64,000 nucleotides of DNA from Raja brachyura. Lineage: Eukaryota. Positions within the stretch are counted from its first letter, which is position 1; each line of letters begins with the position of its first letter. Below, piece by piece: positions 47,801-64,000 of this stretch. A program made the position numbers and the translations under genes. Where the stretch lies: contig OY740821.1 in NCBI GenBank assembly GCA_963514005.1, forward strand, positions 14,012,001-14,076,000, read 5' to 3'. Under the pieces are notes generated by a model that saw only the letters and a list, made by a program, of their open reading frames with translations, was not told the DNA's origin and ran no database searches.

Positions 47801-50800
47801 CATACTTTTATAAACTTTCATACGATTTATATGACAAGAATGGAACAGCGATTAAGAACGGAAAGTGATGGATTATTTCTTTGCTATGTACAACTTCAAT
47901 AAAAGACTAATTAATCAAGAAACAACGTTTGGAAGATTAGTTTTTACTATCTTAAGTGTGTCGTGAGTGCGTAAACTATACCTCCAACCCATCCCCGAAG
48001 AGTAATGGCTATCAAAGTTGGACTTTAAGAACGTAATAAGAAACTGCCATTATAAATGATATCTTTACACTTTTTACTTCCAAGCAATAAACTCTTTTGA
48101 TGAGAACATTGTCCTTCATTAGACATACTTGCAATCTCTTGAATGCTGTTTGCTTGCATGTCCAGCAAGACTGTTCCATTAATGATGCAGCTCCGCAACT
48201 CAAACAGGCTGTGTAATGACAACGTGGCAACATATGGTTTACTCCAGCGGTCTCCACCGTCCTCAACATCTTCCTCAAACTTCAACCACCTGTCAAACCA
48301 CAAAAATACTGTTTCAATTTAATGCTAAGCTTATGCAGAAACCTTCTCAGAGCAAGCAAGTTACTGTTAAAAACAGAGGATCAAGGAACGACTGATGCTG
48401 GCTTACAAAATAAAAGTACCGGAGTTACTCAGCAGGTCAGGCAGCATCCCTAGAGAACATGGACAGGTGGCGTTTCGGGTTGGGATCCTTCTTCAGACTG
48501 ATTGGGGTTGGGGGGGAGGGGGTGGGGGAAGAAAGCTGGAAGACAGGTGGGGGCAGGGTAAAGCCTGGTGAGTGATAGGTGGATACGGGCAAGGGGGCAG
48601 TTGATAGGCAGATGGTTGGACTAAGGGCAGGGATGAAAAGACAACAGGTGTGTCTTAAGGAAAGAGGATAGTGTATTGTGAAGCCAGAGGAGGAAGGAGA
48701 GGGGGAAGGGAAGAAATTGATAAAGTCCAGGTGGGGCACAGGGAAGGGAAGGGGGAAATTGGTGTTTGTAGGTTAGTTACCTAAAATTGGAGAATTCAAT
48801 GTTCATATTGTGAGGTTGTAAGCTACCCACGCTTAAAGATAAAAACAGGGAAGTTGTGAAGACCATTTATTATAAGAGTGAAGATGGAACAAGAGTCAAC
48901 TGAATGCAAACATGTGATTCATTCCTTTATATCTTTTTAACAATCTGAGGACATACAATAGGAGGTTGCCTATATTTTTTTCACCCTGTGCACATTCTTG
49001 TAATTGATAAGAGATCAAGTTAACAGCCACAATCTTTCATTTTCTCTCATTCAAATGGATGCATTTGTGATCGATTTCATCAGCGATCACAAATTTTCTG
49101 GGAGAAATAATTTGTTTATTCCTAGAATATATATAAAACAGACAATAAAAAGCATTAATTTGGGAAAGATTTGAGGCAGCTGATAGGGGAAAAAAGTGAA
49201 GGGAGCCCATCATTAATCATTCCTGGAAATAAATAAACCGCATGAAACATTTGTCATCAGCAACATTTTCTCAGAACACAAATATTGCAGACAATTCACA
49301 CACCTGGCCGTCTCCTTCCACTCAGCATCTTCACCCCCTCGCTGGCAGATTTCATCAAGCTCTGTGAAGAGTTCATGTGGAACATGATCTTCATCATCTT
49401 CAGTACCCAGAATGAACTGAACTCTCTGAGAAGGGGTGTCTAAAAAAGGAGATGCAACATTGCAGGTAATAAGATAGTAATAGATTTTGAAGGACAATCA
49501 CCACAGAGACCCTACAAAGACTCAGATTACATTGAAATGGTGAAGGTTTTAATCCTCATCAGCTGCTGCGAAATGACTCGGAGGCTGCAGCAAGAGATGT
49601 GCCTCAATCAATACGCCCTTTCTGTGGCATAAAACTGGTTTGAGGGCCTTCAAAATACCAGACATTCATTTTGCCTGCTTGAGTTTTCAATACTGTTCAT
49701 ATTTGTTATGATATTATGTACTACACATTTTCAAAATCATGCAGAGCACAGATAAGCTGCAAACTCTGCCTGAATAATGAAGTCCATGCCTGGAAGTGGC
49801 TTAGGGCCGCTTGCATCATAGGATTGTGAGCAAAAATATATACTGTTGTCCTATGGCTGCCATGGTGACAGTTGTAAGACTGGAACCTGCTTCTCAAGGC
49901 ACAGACGTAGCAACTAAAATCTCTACAGGCTGATGCACTGGGAACTGTGCATGTTGCATTTTAACTGGGGAGAAACCATCCTTATGACAAATATTCCCAA
50001 TTTTGAAACTTTTCAATGAATCAACTAATTAGCCCACCAAATAAAATAAATTCAAATTCTAGTCTGCGGTGTATGGTCATACGGAGCTCCAGGCTGAGAG
50101 AGCCCCGCGGACTGTGTGGCACCAACAGGAACATTGACGGCAAACAGCAGATTATTTCTCATGAATCCCTGCCACCTTCAAGATTGGGCCTCTTGCAAAC
50201 GGTGTTCATGCCCAACTTGAAGGAATTGGCACCATGCTCTGCGCAGATTCGGATTCAAAGCTTCGTTTTGTGCCACTATGTACAAACTCACTGCCCGTCT
50301 GATATGTCTAACTTATCCCTCTTTTTTATAATCTGCTTTCCTTGGCAGATTGGGTCTTCAAAGTCCATATGCAGGACCTTAAATAAAGTTAAAATATGAT
50401 CTTACCCACAGGCAAGCTGTTGCCTATGGATGCCGCCCATCCTAACCTGCACTCAAGCAAAATAATTCACCATATAACTTGTGCCAGTCTTTGGGCTGGT
50501 GGGTCATAACGAGTGATAATGCATCTTTAGGAAAATTCAACTCCTGTTCCTGAAGTTGTACATGGGCCAACATATCTTTATCATCTGTGATATAAGAGAA
50601 GGCCACGGTCAGCTTTTTTTTTAAACAAAAAGAATGGAGAGAGAGAGAGAGAGAGAGGGGCTGTTGGTAGCAGCTGACAGTCTGCTTACAGTGTGTCTGG
50701 CAAGAAAGAAGAAAGACTGCAAGAGGATGCTGGCTCGAAGGGCCGAATGGCCTCCTCCTGCACCTATTTTCTATGTTTCCATGATAAGTCCGTGTAGAAG

Positions 50801-53800
50801 TCCTATACAATTACTCTTCCAGTACTGCCACTCATCATGGTCATCAGTCTCCCCTGCCTCCAGGACAGTCTTTAATTCATGAGGGGGCTACTGTACCTGT
50901 AAGCTTGGCCTCCTCTGCATGGGTTCTCCTTTCAAAGATTGTAGCACATTAGTGCAATCCGTAAAGAGATTAGATGGTTCCTGCCTCTCTGAAACCGCCA
51001 GTGTGTGGAGTGCAAGAGATAGATAGATAGATATATATATAGATATATGTATATAGAGATATATATATATATAGATAAATATAAATAAATAAATATAGTG
51101 GTGCCCCATTCAAATATTTACTGCAAGAGGATTGCATGTGCCTCACCACAAGGGAGATTATCCTTTTCTTCCTCTTGGATGGTATCTTTTGCTCTATCTC
51201 GCTTCTTGTGCTTTGATCCATGGGTCCTGTGGTGTCGGTGACTCTGTCTACCCAAAGGCATACGCACTCCAACATACAAGGTCCTGTGCCCTACAACACA
51301 AGAAAGAATACACATTTGTAGATTGTTGAACATCAGAGCAAAAGCACAAAATAGCTATTTTGGTTAAACCACGCAAATAACAGTCAATTTTGTTGCCAGC
51401 ACACAAGAGTTGGAACATTGGAATGCGCAAAGAAGAGCCACAAGACGGAGTCAGAGTCTTTAGGGCTGGTATTTTGAATGTTCAGCTTGCACACAGTGAC
51501 TCACATGTAAAGGCAAAAATCTGGGATCATTTAAGAGACAACTGGCTGCTCTAATGGGGGATTGGGAGGCCAGTGGCATCTGTGAAAGAATTTACCCAAT
51601 GGACTCGGATGAATTCCATCATCCATAGTTATCTAAGAAAGAAGGGAATCTGCCAATATTTGATCAATTAAGAGTTAACTGCACTCTTCCATTTAATTGG
51701 GATACCAATTAAATTATAATAAACTATTTACCATTGTTAATTTGACACATTTTATTATATTTGTGGTGGTGATTGACACTTGCACTTTAAATACAAGCAA
51801 AAGTAAATATCCTCTAGATTTTAAGCTTCATGACTGATAGAAGCTGCAGCAATCTTCCCTTACTTGGGAATAAATAAAGATAATATATATATTCCCATTC
51901 AGTTTAATTTGCCCACTCAACATACACAACCTGTGATTTGCTCCAAAATCAAAAGACTCTGCTATTTTTATGCTGGTGGGCTTTGAAGACTCTATAAATT
52001 ACAGAAGGCAGGCCTTCCTATCAAACCTGCCACAATGCTGAATACAGACTTACTAAACATGTAATTATGACAAAGCTATAACAGGATTTCACACTGTTTA
52101 AAAAAAAGTCCCTGCAATGGAGTACAATCAGTATAATTGTGGAAAATGGCACACAACTATTGGCAATAAACAGTCCATATTTAGTGAAACAGACTCTTTA
52201 CGAAAATAACAGACCTTAATGTTCGTGTTCGGATATGTAGACGCTTAAATGGCAAGATGTGAATTTACACACTCCCAATCAACTACACACCAGTAAAAGT
52301 CAAATGACTGGCTTTGTGTTAATGTGCATCTCTCCAACTACAAACAAACATACAATTTTATTTTTGGAATAAATAATTATGAAACCAAAATGTTGAGCTT
52401 GTCTTTCTTCATCCAGTCTCTTGCTGTTTGCCAAAATTACTACTTTTGTATTGGCAAAAAGTTGTGGTTCCCTATATGAATCATCAGAATCAGAATGCCT
52501 TTTATTGTCACTATACACATGTACAATGAGATTAAAAGCTGCTCCTACTCAGTGCAAAAACAAAACAAAAAAGTGGGGGGGGGGGGGGGGGATAAGGTGC
52601 ACGTCCGAATTATCAAACTACACACAAGTGGATCCATGACAGACACCTGGCACATTCTAGCTTTCCCAAGCTGTCCACACCTTACTTCTATCTATTAATC
52701 TTTCCATCCATACAATATGTCCTCTGAACCCACTCAACCACATTTTCTAACAAACTTCAGTGACATTAACAGGGCTGACAGATTAGCTTCCTCAGCAATC
52801 CACTGGTCATACTGAAGGCAGAGATCATCTTCTAAAGTGAATTTTCTATCGCTTGACCTTCAGAACTGTGATATAATTACAATTCAAGAGTAAGACTAAT
52901 TGGAAACTCTTTCATCAGAAGCAAAGTTAACTTTCACATTGATGGCTGTACAAGTGACATGGAAGCTGGCTGCAACATAGGACACCACACAAGACAACAT
53001 TGCAGACTAGTCTTTATTAAGAACATGAAACAAAAAGACAGTGCAAAAAGGGTCCTAACCCAAAACATAACCTATCCACATTCTCCAGGGATGCTGCTGA
53101 ACCCGCTGAGTTTTTCCAGCATTTGGGTCTTTCCATGCAGTGCAAAAAGATGCTAATACAATGAAAAACTGAAATAATGACTAGGAATTAAGAAACCTTT
53201 ACACTTGGACCACTTCAAGCAGATTTTTCAACAACCTATCCTTCATCCGAATTGGGTTTGCCTTCGACAAATGTAGTAATCTAGCGTTAAATAATTAGAT
53301 ACTTCTGAAAACACAAAGATTTCAGGAAGCAGACCAAAGCACCTGTTGAACAGTAGTTTGTGCTAGTCTTACAGTACCCTCCACAAAATAACTCCATATC
53401 TATCTCTTGCAGTCCATTTGACAAGACCAAGTCAAGTCAAGAGAGTTTATTGTCGTGTGTCCCAGATAGGACAATGAAATTCTTGCATTGCTTAAGCACA
53501 ACAGAATATAGAAGGCATGAATACAGAACAGATCAGTGTGTCCATATACCATTATATAAATATATACACACATTAATAAATAAGCAGATAACGTGCAAAT
53601 AAAGAGATAATGGTCTATTAATGTTCAGAGATTAGTTTCAGTTGAGTTTAATAGCCTGATGGCTGTGGGGAAGTAGCTATTTCTGAACCTGGACGTTGCA
53701 GTCTTCAGGCTCCTGTACCTTCTACCGGAAGGTAGTGGAGAGATGAGTGTGTGGCCAGGATGGTATAGGTCCTTGATGATGCTGGCAGCCTTTTTGAGGC

Positions 53801-56800
53801 AGCGACTACGATAGATCCCCTCGATGGTAGGGAGGTCAGAGCCAATGATGGACTGGGCAGTGTTTATTACTTTTTGTAGTCTTTTCGGCTACAGGGCGCT
53901 CAAGTTGCCGAACCAAGCCACGATGCAACTGGTCAGCATGCTCTCTACTTTATACCTGTAAAGGTTCGAGAGAGTCCTCCTTGACATACCGACTCTCCGT
54001 AATCTTCTCAGGGAGTAGAGGCGCTGATGTGCTTTCTTTATGATTGCATCAGTGTTCTGGGACCAGGAGAGATCTTCGAAAATATGCACGCCCAGGAATT
54101 TGAAGCTCTTGACCCTCTCCACCATTGACCCGTTGATATAAACGGGACTGTGGGTCCCCATCCTACCCCTTCCAAAGTCCACAAAAGGAACCATCAGTTC
54201 CTTGGTTTTGCTGGTGTTGAGTGCCAGGTTATTGTGCTGGCACCATTTTGTCAGTCGGTCGATCTAACTCCTATACTCTGACACGTCCCCATCAGTGATA
54301 CGTCCCACAACAGTGGTGTCGTCAGCGAACTTGATGATGGAGTTCGCACTATGATCGGCTATGCAGCCATGAGTATAGAGTGAGTACAGCAGGGGGTGAG
54401 CACGCAGCCTTGAGGTGCTCCCGTGCTGATTGTTATCAAGGATGACACATTTCCACCAATACGGACAGTCTGTGGTCTTTGAATGAGGAAGTCGAGGATC
54501 CAATTGCAGAGGAATGCGCAGAGACCCAGATCTGAGAGCTTGGTAACCACCTTGGAGGGGATGATGGTATTAAATGCCGAGCTGTAATCAATGAATAACA
54601 GCCTGACATATGAGTTTTTGTTGCCTAAGTGGTCCAGAGTGAAATGGAGAGCCAGCGAGATCGCATCCACCGTTGATCTGTTGTGGCGGTCGGCAAACTA
54701 CAGTGGGTCCAGGTTTTTGTCGAGGTAGGAGTTGATTTGTACCATGATCAACCTCCCAAAGCACTTCATCACCACAGGCGTTAGTGCCACTGGTCGATAG
54801 TCGTTGAGGCATGTCACCTTGCTCTTCTTGGGCACTGGTATAATTGAAGCCCTTTACAACAGGTGGGAACCTCCGACCTCAGATGTGAGAGGTTGAAAAT
54901 GTTGTTGCCCATTCCCAAGTTACATTTATATTAGTATCTGAGAGATCTGCCTCTACAATTTATTTGAAAAGACTATCGCAAACTGACGTACTGGCAATTG
55001 CTTTATTTGTCTGGCAAGCCTGTTCCAACTGATTCCAACCAATTTGTCAAGATATCTAATAACAAAACCAATACCTTTCCAGAATTGTTCAGTAGGCAAG
55101 TTTCAGTACCATACAATCAGGTGAATAGGACATTGCTTAATTCTTCGCTTTATCAGCTTTGTTTTCAATATTACTTTTAAAAAAAAACTGTTTTGTCTTT
55201 TCTGGGTACTTACCAAGTATCTTTCTGGGGACTATTTCTGGTCAGAAGCCAACATTGCTGACCACACAAAAAATCTCTCCATCAAGATCATACACTTTGC
55301 CAAAGTCTGCTGTGGACAAAGTCAAGTTCAAATGGATCCTTGGCACCATCAGTTGCGTTGTCATTGAGATGGCCGAACAGACAATTGTATTTATAGAATT
55401 CTCACAAATAGCATATCAGGAAACAATTTTGATTTTACTATTTTTCTGACTTTATTATTTTGGGTTTGCCATTATTTTTTTGGATGGGCACCATGGTGCA
55501 GCGGTAGAGCTGCTGCCCTACAGCGCCAGAAACGGGGTTTGATCCTGACCACAGAGTTTGCACGTTCTCCCTGTGACAGCACAAGAGGTGCTCCGGTCTC
55601 CTCCTACAGTCCAAAGTAGTACAGATGTGTAGGTTAATTCACTTCTGTTAAGTTGTAAATTGTTCCTGGTGTGTAGGATAGTTGTGTGCTGGGATCGCTG
55701 TAGACTCTGTGGTCTGAAGGGAGTGTGTCCGCACTGTATCTCAATATCGGGTACTAAATAACAATTGGAACCCAGGATTAGAGCGGAAGTTTAAATATCA
55801 TAAATTAAAGGACTTGCATTGAAATATTCATGTGATTTAATTATAATGCACAAAATTAGCCTTTTTGGTCCCTACATATTTTGCAAAGCCATAATTATTA
55901 CTTAGTACACCATTAAAAGCTCACTTCAATCTCATGTAAGATTTTCAGGGTGCTTTATGGCAAGGTTGGTTCATAATTGTTTAAATTCATGTCCTATCGA
56001 TTTCCCTTGTATGCTGTGGAGCAGGTGGGCCCACATTTGCCTGTTCAAACAAACTGAATCACTGGCAGCACCTTGAGCATTTCCATATCAAACGATTCAA
56101 ATGAAAATCTTGGTTGCTGTCAGCTTCACAGAGTAACAATAGAAAATGGCAACATTTGTCATGCCAACTGCAAAATCCAGAAATATATTCTGCGGCGTGG
56201 CATTTCATCTGGTCATATCATCACAGACTACGGATGTAAACGATTTACAGTGAAGACTGTTTAAGAAGGAACTACAGATGCTGGAAAATCAAAGGTAGAC
56301 AAAAATGCTGGAGAAACTCAGCAGGTGAGGCAGCATGTATGGAGCGAAGGAAATAGGCAACGTTTCGGGCCGAGACCCTTCTCCAGACCAAGTACAGTGA
56401 AGACTGTGCTCCTTTAACATGCTCACTCTGTTATTTCAAAACTGTGACATCGTTCTGATGGTGTTCTGGACAAGTGAAACACCTTAATTTCCCATAATTA
56501 TCTATAATAATCATTACAATATATGTCATGTGCATTTTTTTTTTGTTTAAAAATAGTTGAATCAAATCCAAGATAGCAACCATTAGCAATGGGACTAGTC
56601 AGAAGCTAGGATATACTCAGTGGCAGGAAGATGCTCATTTACAGTAAAGCCCCAGGTTTGGAGTAAGAACAAAAGCACAAGAAATAGTGGTTGACCCTAC
56701 GAGCTTACTGTGTTATTTTACAAGATGGACCCTCTACCTCAACTCCAGTTCCCACCATCTTGGAACAGATTCTCTTATTGTCCAAAAATCAATCGATCTC

Positions 56801-59800
56801 AGCCATAAATAGTCTCAATGTCTTTGTATCCACAGTGCCAAGATATTCTAAAGACTTGCAATCCCCTGGATAAATTTATTCTCTAATGATTCTTAAATAA
56901 TCAGTAACTTACTGACATTTGGTCCCTGGTTCTAAATTCTAATTAAACAAAACTGTATGCCTGACTCACTGAGTTACTCCAGCACGTTGTGCCTATCTTC
57001 AGTATGTACCAGCATCTGCAATTCCTTTGTACACAGTATCTACCCTGTCAATTCCTCTTAGAATCTGTGTTTCAATGAGATCATAATTCAATTTTCCATG
57101 TGGCAGAGAGTGTAGGCCAATTTTATACTCCCTGCATAGGGAAAGTCTTTCAAGCCAAACCTCACATTTAAGGAATTAATCTAATTAATTAGAGTACTCC
57201 AACGGCCTGGCAATAAATAGCAAGATTGAACAATACTTGGTCAATTCTTCAATTCTTTATTTCACATTATAGCTTTGTCTGCCATTGTCTCCACAGGGCC
57301 CACATTTAAAGCCCTGTCCCACGGTACGAGTTCATTCCAAGAGCTCTCCCGAGTTTAAAAAAAATCAAACTCATGGTAAGCACGGAGAATGAACGTAGTG
57401 GGTAAGTCGGAGCTCGGGGACGTCTCTTAGCGCTAACTGCAGGTACTCGGGAAGACTCACTAACGGCAGGTAAGCACGGGAAGACACGTGAAGATTTTTC
57501 AACATGTTGAAAAATGTCCACGAGAGCCCCGAGTACCGACGAGTGGCCATTACCGTAAATCTCCGAGTTCGAATCAGGGCAAACTCGGAAGAGCTCTTGA
57601 AATGAACTCGTACCGTGGGACAGGGCTTTTAGTTCTTGTTATCACTAAACTCCACCGACTCCTTCCCACCCCTCCTCCCCCAACCGCACACAGGGTACAC
57701 TGTGTGGCTGTGGGAGAACAAACTTGGTGAGGTGGTGAGGGTTAGATATATCCCCAGGGTACAATTTTGGTTCTTTAAAAAAAAAAGCTATTTTGGATTG
57801 ACACATACTAATCACGGCGCGTAACAGCACTCCAAAAGACTTTTGAATTATGAAAATTCTAAAATGAACCAATGATACAAGCAGACCAAGTCATGATTAG
57901 TTTTTGATCCAACAAAATACATTTTAATCTGCCCTTCAATGTTGCCTCAACATATCAATTAATCAGCCAACCAGCTCTGACTTCTGGTAAAGAAATTTAT
58001 TGATATTTTGTCAGAGCACTTTTCCGATAAGATGAGGCTTCTATGTGCAGGCATGGTCAGAAATATGGGCCAACATTTTGTATTTCAGTCTGTATTTTAT
58101 ATACTTGCACTCTGGCTTTCTCTTCCAGATATTTGTCTTTGTTCATGTTCAAGTCCTTTCTTTCGTTCACTAGGTTTCCATTGTATAATAGAGGATTTAA
58201 AATATAGCATCCAACAAGCATGCTTTGACATTCCACTGAAACGTTCAAGAATCTAAATACTTCTATTTTCTTCCACTCTAAGTTTAATTTTATTTATTCA
58301 TACTCTGAGACAATGTCTAATCCTGATGAAGGATTTAAAGGCAGTATTTGGGATATGATAGTGGCAGCACACTAATTAAGTCATTCATAATCCAGAGACC
58401 CAAAATTAGGTCCCAGGTGTAGAATTTAAAATTAATTTGGAAAAACCAAGTCATGCATAAGTAGGATCAACATTAAAAGCTGTATCATTACCACTACTCT
58501 CAGGAAGAATAAAATCAAACTGACTGCCTGCAATAGACCAAAGCACCAATTCAGACATGGCCAAGTTGTTCCCACCGCAGGCGATTTGACAAATTCTCTC
58601 AAAAACATCTGGGAGCCATTTAAATTGGTGACATGTGGGTTGATAGATGGCAGATGACGTTTACAGCACAAAAGGCAATGGGCATCTTCAACAAGAGGGC
58701 GAATTTTACTATTCACCCTTGGCATCAACAAATTCCCACCACGAACATCCCGGACATCACCATCAATATAAACACGTGCACTAGCCACATAATTACTGTG
58801 GCTATGGAGCAGGTCAATGGCCTGGTATCCCGTGGCAACCGACTCACCTTCTGATACCCCAAAGCCTTTTCACCAAATATAAAGAAAATGTCTGAAGCAT
58901 CTTTCTCCCTTTTAAGAACAATGTGTATTGCCACAATTTACTGCTCCTACATCATAGATCTAGTACTTGCCATTTGCTTTTTTGTTAAATCCCCTTTTAA
59001 TCACTTGCCATTTATATTTTTGCAAGGAATACCTGGAATTTTATTCTAAGGGCTTTAACTTCTACATATTTTACATTAATTCAATACACCATCATGGCTT
59101 TCACCCCACCAGCCTCCACATCCAGGTAATCTATGTGCTAGATGAAGAAGATTTACTTATTTTTTATTTTATTTCAAAATAGACTTTATTCAGGTAATAA
59201 ATATATACAAATACATGTATTTACTTAATATCGTTAAGACCAGTCTAGGGCTTTTTTTCTATTTGAAGGAACATTTAGCTTTTATGACTGGTCATTGGCA
59301 GACCATTCCCAGTACATTTTGGGGAATGGCGAGCTTAAGTACACAATGGATTATCAGAACTCACAGTAACTCAGTATATTTAAAAGGAAATCTCAGCAGT
59401 GGGAATCAAAACTGCACTTTGTTAATCCACACCAAGCTTAATTGAGCAGGTGACAAATTAAGTGTGGGCATCAAATGCTCTCCTAAAAGGTGGACATCTG
59501 TTTTGATTTGTCTGTTAATAATTATAATCACAGTAAAACATGTAGTNNNNNNNNNNNNNNNNNNNNNNNNNNNNNNNNNNNNNNNNNNNNNNNNNNNNNN
59601 NNNNNNNNNNNNNNNNNNNNNNNNNNNNNNNNNNNNNNNNNNNNNNNNNNNNNNNNNNNNNNNNNNNNNNNNNNNNNNNNNNNNNNNNNNNNNNNNNNNN
59701 NNNNNNNNNNNNNNNNNNNNNNNNNNNNNNNNNNNNNNNNNNNNNNNNNNNNNNNNNNNNNNNNNNNNNNNNNNNNNNNNNNNNNNNNNNNNNNNNNNNN

Positions 59801-62800
59801 NNNNNNNNNNNNNNNNNNNNNNNNNNNNNNNNNNNNNNNNNNNNNNNNNNNNNNNNNNNNNNNNNNNNNNNNNNNNNNNNNNNNNNNNNNNNNNNNNNNN
59901 NNNNNNNNNNNNNNNNNNNNNNNNNNNNNNNNNNNNNNNNNNNNNNNNNNNNNNNNNNNNNNNNNNNNNNNNNNNNNNNNNNNNNNNNNNNNNNNNNNNN
60001 NNNNNNNNNNNNNNNNNNNNNNNNNNNNNNNNNNNNNNNNNNNNNNNNNNNNNNNNNNNNNNNNNNNNNNNTGACAAACATGCACCAGCGGTACTGTTGA
60101 GGACAAGAGGTCAGTAACTCAACCCAAGGATGGGAGCAGGAAGACGCACAATCAAAATGACAAGTAAATGAATAACACCATTGTCAATCCCTCAAACAAA
60201 AAGCACTCCCCAGTTTCCCCCAAGTGCCACGGCATCTTATTTTATTTCCTCTATCGGTTCCCTTAGAATACATCACCCCCCCCCCCCCCCCCCCATCTAT
60301 ATCCCAATCCTACCTACGACTCTGATTTCATCCCTCCAATTCTATTTTCAGCTCCTTCAATACAAAAATCCCTTGCTCTCAAAATGCGTTCCTTGTGACT
60401 AATTAAGCTTGACCTCCTGAACGCTTCCAGCATTTTTGATGGTCTTCAACCTGAAACATTGTCTCTCTCCACGGATGCTGCCTAACCTGCTGAACAATTC
60501 TAGTTTTTAAAAAAAATTTATAACAGCAATTTTTGGAATTCCAGCATCCATTGTGCATTTGAAATAACATTGCCAAAAAAGACCAAACTATTCAATATTT
60601 ATTTTCCATAAAGTTGCTGAAACAAAATTAAAACTCAGTCTACACCTAGTATGATTATGGCAACAATATTAATTTATCTCACAACTCAGATGGCCAACTA
60701 AAATCTGCAGCTTGGTGTTCATTTCAAGTCTGTTCTGTAATGTCAGCTTATAACTAGACAGCAGATCTAAAAGCTACCCATCTCTGGCATCAGATCATCT
60801 TTCTGAAAAAACATTGTGGCATCAGCCAAAAGGGCATGCTACTGCTCAGAAAAACAAAGTTCCACATGTTATTCTGTAAGTCATTCTTCCTTCTCTCCAC
60901 TTGTTGTTGAGGTCCAGTTGCCTTTGAATAAATTTCCCCAGTAGCCATGCTTCATGTACAAATCAAATTATTGGCCATTTAATTCCACATTCAACTATAT
61001 CCCGGCTGCCAGGCACACGCAAGGGGAGGAAGTGAGGGGCAAAAACAAGAGGGAGGGAAGAGGAGAGCAAATTAAGTGAAAGGAGTAGTTTTCCCTACAC
61101 TTGTACCAATGATTTCTTACTGCCATTTGTACACAGATATTCCAAGTGGCCAGGATGTGAGTGTTTAAACATTACTGAATGTCATGAAATATTGCTCCAG
61201 ACAGCAGTACTGAAGGTATTCAATGCTTACCATCATTAGAACAGGTGCTGGCACCCACATTCTTAACACACTTCATTTACTAACAAAGGAAGCATCTCTC
61301 AAACTAACATTTACAAGTAATGATCACAGTGGCCACACTTGGTGTTAAACTGGCTTGTCCTGGTTCTTTATTGCAAATCCAGATAGCATTGCATGAACTG
61401 CAAGATAGGCAACCTGTTCTGGTTAGCACCCAGGGACAAGAATAGGAAGCTATTGTGGAGACTAAAAATAGCTCCAGTGCAGTGCATTAGTCATACATCT
61501 GGCACAAAAGATCAATTAGACTTGATGAGATGTGATGGCTTGTTTTCCAAAAAAGCGATGGAACATAATTTCCCGATTCCATAAGTGTCCTCCGCCCACT
61601 GTCCAGAACATAGATTGTTTTCTGGATACATTAGCATTTTGTTCACACATTAACAAAAAGCAGTTACAATTTAAAAATAAAATCGGATACTGGAAGTTGA
61701 AAATAAAAACCAAAAAGTGCTGGAAACAAATCAGGTTAGGCAGCATCTGTTGCAAAAGAAGCAGAGCTGATGCTTTAGTTTGAAGACCTGGAGAAGAAAG
61801 GTAGAGTTGCTGCGTTACAATACCAGAGACCCAGGTTCAATCCCGACTACAGGTGCTGTGTGTGTATGGAGTTTGTACGTTCTCCCACCGTGATCGCGTG
61901 GGTTTTCTCCGGGAGCTCCGGTTTACTCCCATACTCCAAAGATGTGCGGGTTTGTACACCTTGAACAAATCGAAAATCATAAACCCAACATCACTGAGCA
62001 CATTCCACATACCAAAGCCACACGTTTGAATGGAAACTGCCCATGTAAACTTGTCATGTTGCAATTTCATTTTTTTTTCCACTGGAAGTTTTGCCATCCT
62101 ACCATTTCTTTTGGTCAATTTATGTAAAGCAGGTCTGAAGAAGGGTCTCGACCCGAAATGATACCCATTCCTTCTATCCAGGGATGCTGCCTCTCCCGCT
62201 GAGTTACTCCAGCATTTTGTGTCTTTCTTCAGTTTAAACCAGCATCTGCAGTTCCTTCCTACCCTGATTCTAGATGTTGGAAATATTCACATCGCAAGTT
62301 AGACAACTTTATTTTGACTTGAGTAATAATTGCCTGGAACTTGCAGTTGCAATTACAGAGAAATTACAAGCATAACTATCAGCATTCATAGTCACTGACA
62401 GCAACTTCTGCCATCCCGCACCTACGCAGTTCAAAAACAGAAATCCAGTTGATGTCACAGTTCCCTGTTCCTCCGCATCTTTGTGGGTGCAAACACACAG
62501 AATCAGTGACTTGACAAGGATTTCAACATGCATTATTCTAGATGCAAAAACAAATTAAAATGTAAAATGGACTGCTAAATGAGATGTAGCTGTCTTAACA
62601 GCTCACAAGCTCAATTGTTGCTGAACAATTTCTCAAACTTTGGATGTAACAAATTGTGTGTTGATTGTTATTCCTATGGAACAATAGGTGCTAATTTCAT
62701 GGACTCCAAAAGAAAATCAAAGTTTGAGATTTCAGGTCCTACTTTAACCCAATGTGTCGTTCCTAATACAGTATTTCTGTTAAATACAGAGAAGGTGAAA

Positions 62801-63933
62801 TTTAGTGACTTTTACTTCCTGGTCTAAGGTTTGAAAATTCATCAATTTAAATGGCTGTTCAGCCAGTTTGAAACATTTCCATTGCAGGACAATATAGATA
62901 CTTTACAAATGGCATCTGATTGTAAATCATAAGAGTAAAGGAGAAATTCATGCCATTTAATCTTTGTGGGTGGGATTTTATAAAATCAGCAGTCAGCGCT
63001 ATCCTTTGGACATCAAATGGAAATTTTAAGCATCTTTTAAGCCCAATGTTAAGAGCAACAGGCCAGAGGCCACAATAAGCAGTACTACTGTAGCACACTC
63101 AACAAACATTCAGGAATGGGAGCTAGTCTTATGGTGTCACTTACATTTACGCTGTGGACACGGTCGAGACACATGCAAGTTGAACAGCTCTCGTACTTAA
63201 AGCATCCTTCATAACCCAAAATTGCCAAAATGTTTCTTAGCCATTGAAGCAAATGGCAAAATATATAATAAAAACAGGTTTATACAACAGCTTAGATGCA
63301 GATGGCAGAAGTATGGGCGGCACAGTGGCACAACAGTAGAGACCCAGGTTCGATCCTGACTATGGATGCTGGTTTGTGCGGAGTTTGTACATTCTTCCTG
63401 TGACCGTGTATGTTTCCTCCGGGTGCTCCGGTTTCCTCCCACATTCCAAAGACATGCAGGTTTGTAGGTTGAAGGGTCTCGACCCGAAACGTCGCCTATC
63501 TCCTTCGCTCCTTAGATGCTGCTGCACCCGCTGAGTTTCTCCAGCTTTTTGTGTAACCCCAGGTTTGTAGGTTAATTGGCTTCTGTAAATTACCCCTAGC
63601 GTGTAGGTAGGATGTGAAGGTGTGATAAGATAGAACTAGTAGACATGTGATCGCCGGTCGGCATGGATTTGATGGGCCGAAGGGCCTGTTTCCATCCCGT
63701 CTCTCTAAACCTATATTGATATACCAATGGAATATTCTGATCCACAATAAGTGATCCGGCTATTACTTATTGACAGGTTTGACATGCGATTAGGAAACAT
63801 TTCAAACATGTTCATCAGAAAGTTGTAAAACTAATGCATGCACAAATATACCTTCTAGCTCTTCTTTTTCATAGTGAATGTTGAGAACTGAACTCGTTCC
63901 ACCTTGGTCAACCACAGCCTCTTCATCGTGCCT
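2863..63933 (-). CDS. SLC4A8: Sodium-driven chloride/bicarbonate exchanger (NDCBE), multi-exon gene, 5'-incomplete (exon 1 outside window)
   Basis: 24 exons with canonical GT-AG boundaries and compatible phases join to 3258 nt (1085 aa + stop). Peptides [46 protein letters not shown] and [12 protein letters not shown] match recalled SLC4A8 better than SLC4A7 or SLC4A10. Confidence 0.92.
3808..4113 (+). mobile_element. Non-autonomous RTE-clade retroelement (5' UTR-like part joined to 3' end)
   Basis: Begins with RTE-like CCTTGTCGTAGTCGGGGAGCTTGTGT...GAGAGCTATGCC and ends GCTGCCCTACATGCCAGG...(TAAG)3. Flanking direct repeat GAGGTATCATT / GAAGTATCATT at 3797-3807 and 4114-4124. Confidence 0.6.
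4479..4592 (-). CDS. SLC4A8: SLC4A8 exon 24 ([37 protein letters not shown])
   Basis: tatag|G ... AAAAG|gtaaat; 114 nt, phase 2-2. Confidence 0.92.
4625..5430 (-). mobile_element. Old degenerate L2-like LINE fragment
   Basis: Purine-rich antisense signature (AGGAGATATTAGG, GGATTTGAAAACAAGGAT, AGAATTACATGTCATCATGTACA) typical of L2 3'/RT regions; no intact ORF. Confidence 0.5.
7719..7816 (-). CDS. SLC4A8: SLC4A8 exon 23 ([33 protein letters not shown])
   Basis: caacag|GAA ... TATAG|gtaatc; 98 nt; resembles recalled human EAEKMLE...PLESRKLLSSPGK. Confidence 0.9.
8413..8653 (+). mobile_element. CR1 LINE 3' end (5'-truncated)
   Basis: Encodes [33 protein letters not shown]; near-identical to the 3' end of the 25992-28803 element; TTCTATGTTTCTAT tail. 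Confidence 0.9.
8752..8850 (+). mobile_element. Penelope-like terminal-repeat remnant
   Basis: CAGTCAGAAGAAGGGTTTCGACCCAAAACCTCACCTATCC...GCTGAGTTACTCCAGCACTTTG. Confidence 0.65.
8983..9034. repeat. (TA)n/(TATC)n microsatellite
   Basis: Directly visible. Confidence 0.9.
9644..9778 (-). CDS. SLC4A8: SLC4A8 exon 22 ([45 protein letters not shown])
   Basis: tgcag|GTA ... GGG|gtaaga; 135 nt. Confidence 0.93.
10465..10750 (+). mobile_element. Degenerate CR1-like LINE fragment (same family as 58600-58890)
   Basis: CCCACCATCAGCAT...AAACTCTCAACTGGACCAG...CTTGATTGGCA; resembles the 58600-58890 fragment. Confidence 0.4.
11419..11962 (-). mobile_element. Rex1/Babar-like LINE 3' fragment
   Basis: ESILSG..WFG...[14 protein letters not shown]...IIKD..HP.H...LPSGKRYRS; tail GACAATAATAAA followed by (CTAAA)n. 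Confidence 0.85.
12055..12560 (-). mobile_element. Deu-SINE (SacSINE1/AmnSINE1-related), interrupted by a Penelope-end fragment at about 12303-12382
   Basis: Minus strand reads GGCACTATTTTGAAGAAGAACAGGGG...GCGCAAATTGG...CTTCAAAAATACT...AAAGCGCCATGCAAATGCAAGT, matching the recalled Deu-domain and 3' tail. Confidence 0.65.
13528..13701 (-). CDS. SLC4A8: SLC4A8 exon 21 ([30 protein letters not shown]...AAIVFPMM)
   Basis: ttccag|TTC ... ATG|gtaaaa; 174 nt. Confidence 0.95.
14648..14716 (-). CDS. SLC4A8: SLC4A8 exon 20 ([23 protein letters not shown])
   Basis: tttcag|TTC ... CAG|gtgaga; 69 nt. Confidence 0.95.
16066..16753 (+). mobile_element. 5'-truncated CR1 LINE with a 122-bp inverted duplication at its 5' end
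   Basis: [22 protein letters not shown]...[13 protein letters not shown]... with TTCTATGTTTCTAT tail; 16066-16187 is the reverse complement of 16201-16322. Confidence 0.92.
18138..19052 (+). mobile_element. Rex1/Babar-like LINE, RT C-terminal part and 3' UTR
   Basis: ORF 18209-18829: [23 protein letters not shown]...FRFLGIHI...QRLHFLR...SIESILTY...LPSGRRYRS...SFYP. A GTGTG duplication causes a frameshift near 18210; ends GACAATAAAG. Confidence 0.9.
19355..19606 (-). CDS. SLC4A8: SLC4A8 exon 19 ([10 protein letters not shown]...[12 protein letters not shown]...[24 protein letters not shown])
   Basis: catag|AAA ... AAG|gtgggt; 252 nt. Confidence 0.95.
20018..20179 (-). CDS. SLC4A8: SLC4A8 exon 18 ([19 protein letters not shown]...[19 protein letters not shown])
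   Basis: tgcag|CCA ... AAA|gtatga; 162 nt. Confidence 0.95.
21618..21731 (-). CDS. SLC4A8: SLC4A8 exon 17 ([38 protein letters not shown])
   Basis: ggcag|GTG ... AAG|gtaaca; 114 nt. Confidence 0.95.
22166..22327 (-). CDS. SLC4A8: SLC4A8 exon 16 ([28 protein letters not shown]...[10 protein letters not shown])
   Basis: tttag|GAC ... AAG|gtatgt; 162 nt. Confidence 0.95.
23397..23502 (-). CDS. SLC4A8: SLC4A8 exon 15 ([35 protein letters not shown]), glycosylated extracellular loop 3
   Basis: tttag|C ... AGT|gtaagt; 106 nt; CxC motif and NRT/NIT/NLT sequons. Confidence 0.92.
23898..24050 (+). mobile_element. Older CR1 3' end fragment
   Basis: GGTTATGGGGAGAAGGCAG...TCAGCCATGATTGAATGG...GGGCCGAATGGCCTAATTCTGCTCC. 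Confidence 0.75.
25256..25501 (-). CDS. SLC4A8: SLC4A8 exon 14 ([16 protein letters not shown]...[24 protein letters not shown]...)
   Basis: tatag|G ... TACTT|gtaagc; 246 nt. Confidence 0.95.
25992..28803 (-). mobile_element. CR1 LINE, about 2.8 kb; ORF2 (APE endonuclease + RT) disrupted
   Basis: APE: NARSIRNK...DIVGITETW...[10 protein letters not shown]: YRPVSLTS...QHGF...[13 protein letters not shown]...[10 protein letters not shown]...KFADDTK. Stop at 26736, frameshift near 27596, internal deletion near 28365; (ATGTTTCT)n tail. Confidence 0.95.
29018..29151 (-). CDS. SLC4A8: SLC4A8 exon 13 ([45 protein letters not shown])
   Basis: ctccag|AGT ... TGCAA|gtaagt; 134 nt. Confidence 0.95.
29310..29672 (+). 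mobile_element. Degenerate CR1/HER1-type LINE 3' fragment
   Basis: Decayed ARPQ.EY...QRRFT...LP motifs followed by an HE1-like tail GGATGAAGGGACTGTCTCC. Confidence 0.55.
29864..30038 (-). CDS. SLC4A8: SLC4A8 exon 12 ([12 protein letters not shown]...[25 protein letters not shown]), TM1
   Basis: ttccag|G ... ATA|gtaaga; 175 nt. Confidence 0.95.
31339..31439 (-). CDS. SLC4A8: SLC4A8 exon 11 ([34 protein letters not shown])
   Basis: aatag|GAG ... GGAAG|gtttgt; 101 nt. Confidence 0.93.
31779..31925 (-). CDS. SLC4A8: SLC4A8 exon 10 ([49 protein letters not shown])
   Basis: tttcag|ATT ... CAG|gtacag; 147 nt. Confidence 0.95.
32947..33259 (+). mobile_element. HE1-type tRNA-derived V-SINE, full length
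   Basis: GGGCAGCACGGTG A-box region, GGTTCGATCC B-box, V-domain GTTTGCATGTTTCCCC...GTGGGTTTTCTCC...GGTTAATTGGC, tail GGGCCGAAG...(CTAAA)n. Confidence 0.85.
33347..33516 (+). mobile_element. CR1 3' end
   Basis: Near-identical to the 8413-8653 copy; TTCTATGTTTCTATGT tail. Confidence 0.9.
34280..34472 (+). mobile_element. Penelope-like 3' terminal remnant
   Basis: ATAATCAGTCTGAAAAAGGGTCCCAACC...GATGCTGC...TTACTCCAACACTTTG, preceded by a short inverted end AACTGCAGATGCTGG. Confidence 0.6.
34612..34795 (-). mobile_element. CR1 3' end, second subfamily with (CTATTGT)n tail
   Basis: AGACAAT repeats, then AGGTGCAGGAGTAGAGGCCATTCGGCC...TGGCTGATCATCC. Confidence 0.85.
35895..36975 (+). mobile_element. 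5'-truncated Penelope-like element: inverted terminal repeat, GIY-YIG endonuclease remnant, 3' terminal repeat
   Basis: 36200-36570 gives the decayed peptide [29 protein letters not shown]...HFNSPSHS...[22 protein letters not shown]. 35895-36150 is an inverted copy of the 36750-36975 end. A small CR1 tail is inserted at about 36690-36748. Confidence 0.8.
37200..37287 (-). CDS. SLC4A8: SLC4A8 exon 9 ([29 protein letters not shown])
   Basis: ttccag|G ... GAG|gtaagt; 88 nt. Confidence 0.95.
39190..39550 (+). mobile_element. Internally deleted HERO (R2-group)-like retroelement
   Basis: [13 protein letters not shown] followed by CTGATCAACC...GGGTGAGGGTGTCTGATGTTGAAAGACCCGAAACACCCAATGACCCCAGG...CATCACTGATGATGTG, which I recall as the HERO ORF end and 3' UTR. 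Confidence 0.5.
40068..40725. mobile_element. Nested repeats: Penelope terminal repeats interrupted by a GC-rich element with a Rex1-like tail (minus strand, about 40125-40575)
   Basis: CAACTGCAGATGCTGG...GCTGCA is broken at about 40124 by GTACTTTATTTGTCACATG and resumes at about 40580 with CAACGTTTTAGGTCGAGAC...CATCAG. Confidence 0.5.
41107..41264 (-). CDS. SLC4A8: SLC4A8 exon 8 ([22 protein letters not shown]...EVPIPTR)
   Basis: ggcag|GTT ... ACCAG|gtagct; 158 nt. Confidence 0.95.
41717..42016 (-). mobile_element. HE1-type SINE, full length
   Basis: Reverse complement of the 32947-33259 family (GGGTGGCACAGTGGC...CAGGTTCGATCCC...GGGCCGAAGGGCCTGTTTCC). Confidence 0.85.
42374..42462 (-). CDS. 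SLC4A8: SLC4A8 exon 7 ([30 protein letters not shown])
   Basis: tctttag|GT ... AAG|gtaaga; 89 nt; restores the phase between exons 6 and 8; resembles recalled human GQTVSPQS...KNGVN...SK. Not in the ORF track. Confidence 0.85.
42555..43105 (-). mobile_element. HER1-type CR1 LINE 3' fragment
   Basis: [30 protein letters not shown] with an HE1-like 3' tail. Confidence 0.75.
45135..45323 (-). CDS. SLC4A8: SLC4A8 exon 6 (MVLDHQE...[37 protein letters not shown])
   Basis: gttag|AT ... GCTG|gtaaga; 189 nt. Confidence 0.95.
45356..45615 (+). mobile_element. CR1 3' end, (CTATTGT)n subfamily, about 30 nt from the exon 6 acceptor
   Basis: [15 protein letters not shown]-like sequence; GGCCTACTCCTGCACCTATTGTCTATTGTCTATTG. 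Confidence 0.88.
48129..48289 (-). CDS. SLC4A8: SLC4A8 exon 5 ([34 protein letters not shown]...)
   Basis: gacag|G ... GCAA|gtatgt; 161 nt; conserved SLC4 ETARWLKFEE motif spans exons 4/5. Confidence 0.95.
48380..48832 (-). mobile_element. Penelope-like element 3' end (ORF end plus 3' terminal repeat)
   Basis: Minus strand encodes [16 protein letters not shown], then a pyrimidine-rich UTR and CAGTCTGAAGAAGGATCCCAACCCGAAACGCCACC...GATGCTGCCTGACCTGCTGAG. Confidence 0.8.
49304..49439 (-). CDS. SLC4A8: SLC4A8 exon 4 ([32 protein letters not shown]...WKETAR)
   Basis: tttag|AC ... GCCAG|gtgtgt; 136 nt. Confidence 0.95.
50636..50657. repeat. (GA)n microsatellite
   Basis: Directly visible. Confidence 0.85.
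51016..51097. repeat. (GATA)n/(TA)n/(TAAA)n compound microsatellite
   Basis: Directly visible. Confidence 0.9.
51147..51290 (-). CDS. SLC4A8: SLC4A8 exon 3 ([47 protein letters not shown])
   Basis: tgtag|GG ... TGTG|gtgagg; 144 nt, phase 1-1. Confidence 0.92.
53428..54905 (-). mobile_element. Rex1/Babar-like LINE, RT region and 3' end, frameshifted
   Basis: YRPVAL...[15 protein letters not shown]...GAPQGCVL...[10 protein letters not shown]...FKFLGVHI...QRLYSLRRL; (TTGAC)n tail. Confidence 0.9.
55486..55743 (+). mobile_element. HE1-type SINE (internally shortened)
   Basis: GGGCACCATGGTGCAGCGGTAGAG...GGTTTGATCC...GTTTGCACGTTCTCC...CTGAAGGG...CTGTATCTC. Confidence 0.8.
56263..56390 (-). mobile_element. 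Penelope terminal-repeat insertion
   Basis: AAGAAGGAACTACAGATGCTGG...GCAACGTTTCGGGCCGAGACCCTTCTCCAGACC; flanked by the direct repeat TACAGTGAAGACTGT at about 56247-56261 and 56393-56407. Confidence 0.8.
57309..57628. mobile_element. PIF/Harbinger-type MITE, 320 bp
   Basis: 48-bp terminal inverted repeats (57309-57356 and 57581-57628, 2 mismatches) starting AAGCCCTGTCCCAC; TTA target-site duplication on both sides; internal palindrome TTTTCAACATGTTGAAAA. Confidence 0.9.
58600..58890 (+). mobile_element. Degenerate CR1-like LINE RT C-terminal fragment
   Basis: [13 protein letters not shown]...TNIPDITI...CTSHIITVA-like motifs. Confidence 0.5.
59547..60071. other. Assembly gap (525 N)
   Basis: Run of N. 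Confidence 1.
61800..61956 (+). mobile_element. Partial HE1-type SINE
   Basis: GGTAGAGTTGCTGC...CCAGGTTCAATCCCGACTAC...GAGTTTGTACGTTCTCC. Confidence 0.75.
62131..62166 (+). ncRNA. Minimal type I hammerhead ribozyme-like motif (degenerate copy)
   Basis: GGT-CTGAAGA-A-GGGTC TC GACCC-GAAA-TG-AT-ACC: core boxes, stem II and a 3-bp stem I are present, but the cleavage triplet is mutated relative to the family consensus CGTC. Confidence 0.45.
62131..62261 (+). mobile_element. Penelope terminal-repeat copy
   Basis: AGGTCTGAAGAAGGGTCTCGACCCGAAATG...GATGCTGCC...CCGCTGAGTTACTCCAGCATTTTG...CCAGCATCTGCAGTTCCTTCC. Confidence 0.8.
63315..63710 (+). mobile_element. HE1-type SINE with a nested 89-bp Penelope-end insertion (63471-63559)
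   Basis: GGGCGGCACAGTGGC...GGTTCGATCC...GGGCCGAAGGGCCTGTTTCC; insert flanked by a 14-bp direct repeat CAGGTTTGTAGGTT. Confidence 0.85.
63852..63933 (-). CDS. SLC4A8: SLC4A8 exon 2 ([28 protein letters not shown])
   Basis: Acceptor ttccagcag|AGG, donor AAG|gtatat; 82 nt, or 85 nt if the upstream AG of the NAGNAG is used. Confidence 0.9.
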
Positions 63934-64000
63934 CTGCTGGAAATAGAAATCATTGCATAAGTCTCAACGTTACAGATAGCGTTGTGTGTACCACTTGATG

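What the first reader, a model, noticed from the sequence alone, without database searches (positions are those of the whole stretch)
62131..62261. High-copy Penelope terminal-repeat family whose consensus is a minimal hammerhead ribozyme
Seen: about 15-20 related 90-140 bp repeats occur in the introns and 3' UTR (near 1218, 8755, 12303, 13148, 20668, 32530, 34381, 35970, 36893, 40600, 48470, 53046, 56357, 62131, 63471). By-eye consensus: (G)GT CTGAAGA A GGGTC-TC-GACCC GAAA CG TC (A/G)CC. This has the CUGANGA box, stem II, the GAAA box, a minimal stem III with palindromic ACGU, a GUC cleavage triplet and a short stem I. At 48380-48832 and 36200-36975 the repeat follows the end of a GIY-YIG ORF, which ties it to Penelope. 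Established: Penelope pseudo-LTRs carry minimal type I hammerheads thought to act as dimers. Inference: this is a large, mostly non-autonomous ribozyme-bearing retroelement population. No copy here is fully intact (62131 lacks GUC, 63471 lacks CTGA, 56357 has CTGGAGA, 48470 has GCC).
Basis: partly seen in the sequence, partly recalled or inferred. Interest (0 to 1): 0.7.

Follow-up and report, generated by a model that had tools for sequence, protein, structure and literature searches.

The report
Penelope retrotransposon ends with hammerhead motif
This repeat is the end piece of a very abundant Penelope-type jumping gene in a cartilaginous fish and carries the small hammerhead motif known from such elements; the copy flagged here is a decayed stub that is unlikely to cut RNA, and the many stubs that start exactly at the motif's first letters likely mark where the element's RNA begins.

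Summary
In detail: all 15 listed places hold the repeat, with 20 hits in the window and none in shuffles. It is the hammerhead-plus-tail end of a Neptune-type Penelope-like element (PLE). The repeat follows 26 of 30 GIY-YIG ends, and young copies with a 1,204-codon open frame show classic tandem and inverted pLTRs. At least 37,710 exact intact-core copies exist genome-wide. The focal copy has lost its cleavage site. Corrections: it lies antisense in a 5' intron of an SLC4 gene, not a 3' UTR; helix I of young masters is only 2 bp; copies decay neutrally; intact copies are not depleted on the sense strand of introns. Most copies are stubs, often with target-site duplications, that share their sequence with the autonomous element. 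Their 5' ends pile up at -4..0 of the motif (64/259, replicate 42/120) and not at the cleavage site. They are likely run-off cDNAs from the uncut RNA's 5' end; no RNA evidence tests this. The scan already noted this family and this reading on other DNA of this genome. New member of a known kind.

The parts
62133..62261 (+). Focal copy: hammerhead-plus-long-tail stub starting at position -2 of the motif; cleavage site decayed; about 89-91% identical to its nearest fetched copies; no clear target-site duplication
62135..62141 (+). CUGANGA box (C3-A9), intact
62143..62154 (+). Stem II, 5 bp with 2-nt loop (or 4 bp with 4-nt loop), after one unpaired A
62155..62162 (+). GAAA box intact; palindromic ACGU and GUC site broken by three substitutions
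62163..62261 (+). Tail region; long form, about 36 nt beyond the short end
63471..63559 (+). Young-subfamily stub lacking the CUGA box, short tail, 14-bp target-site duplication (63457-63470, 63560-63573), inserted in another dispersed repeat
56261..56388 (-). Stub starting at -2, long tail, 15-bp target-site duplication (56246-56260, 56393-56407), 4 extra bases at the 5' junction; A6 changed to G
48380..48842 (-). 5'-truncated element: last codons of the GIY-YIG frame (48780-48842), pyrimidine-rich 3' region, hammerhead and tail (48380-48503); GUC changed to GCC
36259..36559 (+). Frameshifted GIY-YIG endonuclease remnant
36884..36987 (+). Old-subfamily copy downstream of that remnant
1212..1316 (+). 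Decayed copy
8753..8849 (+). Decayed copy
12303..12388 (+). Copy truncated inside the motif
13136..13245 (+). Old-subfamily copy (CUGAUGA)
15431..15514 (+).
20661..20715 (+). Partial copy
32082..32172 (+).
32519..32629 (+). Old-subfamily copy
34378..34479 (+). Decayed copy
35893..36010 (-). Old-subfamily copy with both boxes and a GUU site
40642..40729 (+). Decayed partial copy; a weak opposite-strand hit lies beside it (40566-40638)
53045..53139 (+). Copy truncated inside the CUGANGA box
56958..57034 (+). Tail-only fragment
60439..60508 (+). Old-subfamily fragment
61700..61789 (-). Old-subfamily fragment
63852..63936 (-). Likely early coding exon of the SLC4-family host gene (edges read by eye from AG/GT); places the focal copy antisense in a 5' intron
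   Evidence: downstream exons

Best explanation
The repeat is the hammerhead-plus-tail end segment of a Neptune-type Penelope-like retrotransposon, and the copy at 62133-62261 is a decayed stub that likely arose when reverse transcription began inside the element's uncut RNA at the tail and ran off the RNA's 5' end at the first letters of the hammerhead. Shown: the segment sits at both ends of full-length elements, 3,991 nt apart; copies end at two tail positions about 36 nt apart; many stubs have 9-16-bp target-site duplications; their 5' ends cluster at -4..0 and not at the cleavage site; copies decay neutrally. Inferred: transcription starts at an initiator-like YCAGT overlapping the 5' arm of helix I, so the RNA reads R-ORF-UTR-R. 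Priming at the 5' R gives the stubs; priming at the 3' R gives the variably truncated long copies; jumps between R copies give partial tandems. Inferred from other PLEs: the motif would cut only as a dimer and with protein help, and cutting is not needed for insertion. Single intronic copies are predicted to be inert.
For: Link to PLE: a repeat lies within 450 nt downstream, same strand, of 26 of 30 best GIY-YIG loci. Full-length copies L192-L195 show partial-tandem pLTRs, and L192 and L194 an inverted upstream copy. [quoted passage not shown] Copy number: 9,355 and 28,355 exact matches to two disjoint intact-core patterns, 0 for reversed controls. A family-independent descriptor gave 55 hits in 779 kb against 0-2 in 5 shuffles. 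5' ends at -4..0: 64 of 259 solo and 44 of 145 inverted copies; replicate in 400 kb of other genes, 42 of 120 and 21 of 78; about 8 and 3 expected for solo copies. At the cleavage site (+26..+30): 11 and 2, background. Of 126 young copies, 64 extend 0-5 nt upstream, 3 extend 7-17 nt and 59 extend 32 nt or more; 22 of 48 solo stubs have a duplication of 9 bp or more against 0.15 in shuffled pairs. Both short copies that run on into the ORF leader with the motif intact start at -1 and -4, not in the UTR. Contigs of two other coded organisms have loose ends at -4..-2. Neutral decay: mismatch 7.7% in the core, 8.5% at free positions, 10% in the tail. Internal priming, the tail and dispensable cleavage are shown for an anole PLE (PMC11167929).
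Against: No RNA 5'-end data: only assembled contigs were available, several probably DNA. Of 16 long-frame copies fetched, none begins at -3; 4 run through into an upstream tandem copy and the rest are truncated, which fits read-through transcripts as well as jumps. The same CAG could be a splice acceptor, as in D. virilis Penelope where the intron ends at helix I (PMC4209133). C at -4 matches in 11 of 21 young stubs that reach -3, more than a start at -3 alone predicts. The leader-bearing test has n = 2. The extra-G signal (15 of 32, p about 0.013) was post hoc and junction extras are G-rich anyway. Pfam RT and GIY-YIG scores on the full frame are below curated cut-offs and no tree was built, so 'Neptune' rests on the linker motif. 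In D. virilis the start site lies about 120 nt upstream of the hammerhead (46 nt plus a 75-nt intron; PMC2377424, PMC4209133).
Confidence: 0.7

Rival explanations
1. The 5' pile-up is a reverse-transcriptase stop and not an RNA end: the enzyme stalls just after stem II, at a bound protein, or at a branch point in a splicing intermediate, on a longer read-through RNA.
For: Endonuclease-linked copies have a pyrimidine-rich region and CURAC-like words just before a conserved CAG. D. virilis has its intron's 3' end at helix I (PMC4209133). Some stubs reach -4 or -5. Full-length copies pass the point seamlessly.
Against: No spliced endonuclease-to-hammerhead junction in the genome (0 hits with the corrected pattern; one search was mis-specified) nor a leader-to-hammerhead junction. 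No GT..AG joint among the joints displayed (101 and 41 further joints were not shown). The branch-like A lies only a few bases from the AG. Partly repeated starts and extra bases at junctions look like jumps at a template end.
Confidence: 0.25
2. The stubs are a SINE-like non-autonomous family transcribed from their own internal promoter and mobilised in trans.
For: Fixed 5' end, fixed 3' ends, target-site duplications and very high copy number. D. virilis Penelope has an internal promoter (PMC2377424).
Against: Both tail variants of the young subfamily occur in short and in long copies (45 and 48 of type A, 9 and 2 of type B). Stubs usually lose the C, often the A, of the initiator-like word. 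Copies decay neutrally.
Confidence: 0.15
3. The family is an active ribozyme population (retrozyme-like): cleavage and circularisation create the inserted units and intronic copies cut host RNA.
For: Masters keep every core base; rare head-to-tail arrays exist (54-nt units in L025, 142-nt units).
Against: No ends at the cleavage site. 76 short head-to-tail junctions for one pattern against 37,710 exact-core copies. No sense depletion: fully intact 22 sense against 25 antisense; motif-spanning 165 against 151. Helix I is 2 bp in young masters. The focal copy folds no better than shuffles (z -0.5). 8 of 9 Xenopus dimers did not cleave in vitro (bioRxiv 10.64898/2026.07.22.740005).
Confidence: 0.07
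4. In the young subfamilies the hammerhead is a non-catalytic relic, kept because the same bases serve as promoter or protein-binding site. This is compatible with the best explanation.
For: Helix I fell from 4-5 bp in the old subfamily majority to 2 bp in young ones while YCAGT was kept across unrelated upstream regions. A competing hairpin is predicted for the isolated motif.
Against: All core bases, the palindrome and NUH are kept in the main clusters apart from CpG-type decay. D. virilis also has a 2-bp helix I and the anole motif cleaves when protein is added (PMC4209133, PMC11167929).
Confidence: 0.3

Closest known systems
Minimal type I hammerheads in pLTRs of metazoan Penelope-like elements (Cervera and De la Pena 2014, PMC4209133)
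   Same: CUGANGA and GAAA boxes, unpaired base before stem II, G10.1-C11.1, palindromic 15.2-16.2, no helix III loop, mostly single dispersed copies, few in full elements.
   Different: Stem II is 5 bp (schistosome families 7-8); helix I is 2 bp in young masters (4-5 in schistosomes, 2 in D. virilis); intact copies are far more numerous (at least 37,710 exact against about 4,000 in coelacanth and 9,000 in Xenopus). Cartilaginous fish are not named in the text read.
EN+ Penelope-like elements, Neptune type (PMC8557442)
   Same: Single frame with RT then GIY-YIG, CX2-5CxxC linker, partial-tandem pLTRs, inverted 5'-truncated upstream copy, optional 30-40-bp tail.
   Different: Frame of 1,204 codons with a long Pro/Ser/His-rich stretch; a sharp class of roughly 95- and 130-nt stubs is not described in the passages read.
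Anolis PAc (Poseidon) element, in vitro (PMC11167929)
   Same: Two 3' ends defining the tail; no ends at the hammerhead site; short helix I and ACGU palindrome.
   Different: In PAc the frame starts inside the hammerhead; here the first ATG is about 160 nt downstream of it. Different clade. No 5' pile-up reported there.
Non-LTR retrozymes of vertebrates (bioRxiv 10.64898/2026.07.22.740005; PMC7229834 seen as listing only)
   Same: PLE-derived type I hammerhead units; reported in one chondrichthyan; rare short arrays exist here.
   Different: This family is overwhelmingly single or head-to-head, tied to a coding element, not tandem.
Retroviral minus-strand strong-stop DNA and first strand transfer (recalled, not from a call)
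   Same: Proposed analogy: a terminal R sequence copied first from the RNA's 5' part, then transferred to the 3' R.
   Different: Priming here would be by nicked target DNA at an internal tail, not by tRNA; stubs integrate directly. Untested.

Membership tests
EN+ Penelope-like element | Single ORF with RT and C-terminal GIY-YIG endonuclease | tested here: met
   1,204-codon frame; RVT_1 E 5e-4 and GIY-YIG E 2e-3, both under cut-off; a fragment passes the GIY-YIG cut-off
EN+ Penelope-like element | Partial-tandem pLTRs | tested here: met
   L192-L195; period 3,991 nt in L195
EN+ Penelope-like element | Inverted 5'-truncated copy upstream | tested here: met
   L192, L194, L205, L207, L208; 145 of 404 and 78 of 198 non-tandem copies have a head-to-head partner
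EN+ Penelope-like element | Optional 30-40-bp tail | tested here: met
   3' ends at about +93..95 and +129..131; two peaks
EN+ Penelope-like element | Target-site duplications | tested here: met
   22 of 48 solo young stubs, control mean 0.15; two window copies
EN+ Penelope-like element | RT groups with PLE/telomerase RTs in a tree | not tested
   no reference set; PDB sequence search found nothing
EN+ Penelope-like element | Intron in the pLTR/5' UTR (some families) | tested here: inconclusive
   acceptor-like CAG present; no spliced junction in DNA or among displayed contig joints
Neptune clade | CX2-5CxxC linker between RT and EN | tested here: met
   C-x4-C-x2-C in P0010; feature from PMC8557442, shared with Nematis and Naiad
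Minimal type I hammerhead (family masters) | CUGANGA, GAAA and NUH | tested here: met
   cluster majorities; exact counts; descriptor scan
Minimal type I hammerhead (focal copy 62133) | A15.1-U16.1 pair and NUH site | tested here: not met
   UGAU in place of CGUC
Minimal type I hammerhead (family masters) | Unpaired base after A9, G10.1-C11.1, palindromic 15.2-16.2 | tested here: met
   G-C in 225 of 306 copies with both boxes
Minimal type I hammerhead (family masters) | Helix I of several base pairs | tested here: inconclusive
   2 bp in young subfamilies (third position A x C in 198 of 288); 4-5 bp in the old-subfamily majority
Minimal type I hammerhead (family masters) | Compensatory changes in stems | tested here: inconclusive
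   old versus young majorities differ G-C to A-U at 10.1/11.1 and G-C to U-A at 2.2/1.2, with N7 and N17 varying; from 33 decayed copies, and not visible in the few single old copies with both boxes
Minimal type I hammerhead (family masters) | Mg2+-dependent self-cleavage as a dimer | not testable with these tools
   needs bench work; indirect signs (ends at the site, sense depletion) absent
Non-LTR retrozyme | Tandem units each with a hammerhead | tested here: not met
   76 short head-to-tail junctions for one pattern against 37,710 exact-core copies; none in the window
Non-LTR retrozyme | Circular RNA | not testable with these tools
   only contigs available

The most novel reading that the evidence does not exclude
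The hammerhead-plus-tail segment is a retrovirus-like R region: the capped RNA starts at an initiator overlapping helix I, and the hundreds of thousands of stubs are integrated strong-stop cDNAs. Pseudo-LTR tandems then arise by R-to-R template transfer on uncut RNA and not from a ribozyme-made circle, and the hammerhead bases double as the core promoter.
Probability: 0.4. Interest if true: 0.65.

Novelty: new member of a known kind. Interest (0 to 1): 0.38.

Why it matters
The motif itself is expected in Penelope ends. What could matter is the record of copy ends. How PLEs build their tandem pseudo-LTRs and what their hammerheads do is still open, and the usual proposal is cleavage and circularisation. 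Here thousands of young insertions give base-level ends that ignore the cleavage site and favour uncut linear RNA with a fixed 5' end, and intact young elements exist to test this. The lack of strand bias suggests that the many intact-looking motifs in introns do not harm host transcripts.

Tried and rejected
Rfam scan: no hammerhead hit; two weak snoRNA hits are chance. Selection against sense-strand copies: the window alone is skewed (15 antisense to 3, p 0.008, post hoc) but 1.18 Mb inside other multi-exon genes shows none; rejected. The 261:233 count includes tandem tail units; later counts drop tandem members (99 of 509, 13 of 215). A third planned gene sample was not obtained. Spliced or back-spliced junctions in DNA: 0 hits (one search had a surplus base and tests nothing). 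Sequencing runs: only contigs, so no start, end or expression can be read; small-share runs give no habitat evidence. One search had an off-by-one error, corrected. In one search the upstream background was entered as 20; one search gives 22, which changes the expectation from 8.1 to 8.3. The dimer energy evaluation failed and is not used. No target-site duplication found for the focal copy (best 7 bp). NCBIfam and PDB searches of the ORF were empty; no Atlas result was obtained. Lunse et al. (dimer cleavage) could not be read.

Full report
Observation. The focal stretch holds the CUGANGA box (62135-62141), one unpaired A, a 5-bp stem II and GAAA, but UGAU replaces CGUC, so the cleavage site is gone. 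A profile seeded from window copies found 20 hits, none in five shuffles or the reversed window. Rfam shows no hammerhead here. The host is an SLC4-family gene on the minus strand. An early exon lies near 63852-63936, so the focal copy is antisense in a 5' intron, not in a 3' UTR. Whether the copy at 1212 is intronic was not settled.

Link to Penelope. GIY-YIG remnants lie at 36259-36559 (+) and weakly at 48780-48842 (-), each upstream of a repeat. Among the 30 best genomic matches to an endonuclease fragment, 26 have the repeat within 450 nt downstream on the same strand. The named protein relatives are from rays and a shark (5 of 9 hits), so the genome is inferred to be a cartilaginous fish. 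A search with one relative found 93 matches without internal stops. In 19 element loci fetched, L192-L195 show a full frame preceded by a truncated tandem copy, several have an inverted upstream copy, and the period is 3,991 nt. The frame is 1,204 codons with an RT (YIDD), a C-x4-C-x2-C linker and a terminal GIY-YIG. Pfam scores on the whole frame are under the curated cut-offs; one fragment passes. These are the features given for EN+ PLEs, the linker pointing to Neptune (PMC8557442: passages and section 6 read). No tree was built.

Copy number. Two disjoint intact-core patterns match 9,355 and 28,355 times, with 0 for reversed controls. In 1.18 Mb inside multi-exon genes chosen without regard to the repeat there were 701 hits including tandem tail units, which extrapolates to over a million; 47 passed a strict intact test. 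A family-independent descriptor gave 55 hits in 779 kb against 0-2 in shuffles.

Is it a hammerhead? The main cluster majorities among 607 copies keep the core apart from CpG-type decay and match the pattern described in PMC4209133 (parts 1-2 of 4 read; two supplements searched for shark and skate names without a hit, one file could not be searched and may bear on whether this lineage was listed). Helix I is weak: 2 bp in young subfamilies. An older subfamily (33 decayed copies) has a 4-5-bp helix I, U at N7, a GUU site and A-U in place of G-C at the base of stem II. These are compensatory changes at majority level only; single old copies are too decayed to confirm them. After insertion the core decays like its neighbours: 7.7% against 8.5% and 10% over 271 spanning copies. 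Intact copies are not depleted on the sense strand: 22 against 25 fully intact, 165 against 151 motif-spanning. The window's own skew did not generalise. The focal copy folds no better than shuffles. Short head-to-tail dimers are rare: 76 junctions for one pattern.

Where copies begin and end. 3' ends fall at two places about 36 nt apart, the PLE tail, which in an anole element corresponds to two internal priming sites (PMC11167929: parts 1-3 of 4, main text and methods, read). 5' ends pile up at -4..0 relative to C3: 64 of 259 solo and 44 of 145 inverted copies (99 tandem members dropped and 6 unaligned, of 509). An independent 400-kb sample gave 42 of 120 and 21 of 78. About 8 and 3 are expected for solo copies. 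The cleavage site shows background only (11 and 2). The sequence upstream of such stubs has genome-like composition, so they are not copies with an unrecognised UTR. In the young subfamily, 64 of 126 copies extend 0-5 nt upstream, 3 extend 7-17 nt and 59 extend 32 nt or more; the long class is inflated by loci chosen for the ORF. In the unbiased genic sample 21 of 32 were stubs. 22 of 48 solo stubs have a 9-16-bp duplication, against 0.15 in shuffled pairs; several read duplication-AGU or duplication-GU directly, others carry extra or partly repeated bases. Two window copies have 14- and 15-bp duplications. Both tail variants occur in short and long copies. The two short copies that continue into the ORF leader with the motif intact begin at -1 and -4. 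Contigs of two other coded organisms have loose ends at -4..-2.

Mechanism. Shown: the segment is at both ends of the element, stubs are separate insertions, and their ends ignore the cleavage site. Inferred: the RNA begins at the YCAGT kept across unrelated upstream regions, which fits the initiator consensus (recalled). Priming at the 5' tail then gives a run-off stub, priming at the 3' tail gives long copies, and R-to-R jumps give tandems. Against: there are no RNA end data; none of 16 long-frame copies starts at -3; the CAG may be a splice acceptor as in D. virilis, where the start site is further upstream (PMC4209133; PMC2377424, passages), although no spliced junction was found in DNA. 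Arkhipova et al. explain head-to-head structures by self-priming on an antisense template (PMC3846280, passages), which was not tested here. Cleavage, if any, would need a dimer and probably protein: low activity in PMC4209133, protein-assisted and dispensable in PMC11167929, 1 of 9 dimers active in bioRxiv 10.64898/2026.07.22.740005 (parts 1-3 of 5 and passages read; supplements closed, and they may list this family). Lunse et al. is known only from its title and the review passages in PMC6765202. PMC6155905 was read as passages.

Novelty. The kind is known. Searches for a description of this family in cartilaginous fish or of a 5' pile-up at the hammerhead turned up none in the listings, but subscription journals and Repbase were not searched. 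My reading was recorded before I looked at earlier notes. Several notes on other DNA of this genome report the same family and the same shared start; they are not independent support. One hints at sense-strand avoidance, which my samples do not show. Verdict: real, correctly recognised, a new member of a known kind; the focal copy is inert; the end-mapping gives a testable model of PLE replication. Interest 0.38.

Noticed in passing
G000:C1:153807901-153886000 (L121-L128): About 14 short tandem arrays, on both strands within one SLC4 paralog, of a 54-nt unit made of the tail only (no hammerhead); 93 of the 95 hits with that start in the 779-kb sample lie here. Suggests local hopping of a tail-derived minisatellite.
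   Followed up: partly
L025:1431-1642: 3.9 tandem copies of a 54-nt hammerhead-only unit, a miniature retrozyme-like array; only one unit keeps both stem II and GUC.
   Followed up: partly
G000:C7:30925546-30925879; L287, L288: Head-to-tail units of 142 nt made of the whole hammerhead-plus-tail segment with a few leader bases; three successive junctions on C7. Candidates for natural dimers.
   Followed up: partly
L201:1-5005: About 26 identical 193-bp repeats of the ORF's 5' part directly upstream of a young element; real array or assembly artefact not settled.
   Followed up: no
L195:4777-4785: The first ATG of the frame sits inside a strong splice-donor-like AAG/GTATG word; no spliced partner found.
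   Followed up: partly
window 26085-28889 (-): Long LINE copy with endonuclease and RT matches, broken by stops; CR1-like by recall.
   Followed up: no
window 18191-18829 (+), 53889-54697 (-): 3' parts of another LINE-like family whose C-terminal region matches Pfam ALKBH8_N, with RT pieces.
   Followed up: no
window 61797-61956 and 63330-63710: Copies of another abundant short repeat; the second is split by the young Penelope stub.
   Followed up: partly
window 572-618 (-): Purine-rich stretch that could encode an acidic run; weak Rfam sR52 hit is chance. Possibly a late exon of the host gene.
   Followed up: no
L216, G000:C1:659996-660324: Inverted copy, then a copy running 99 nt into the ORF leader, then a second stub: looks like a template jump.
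   Followed up: partly
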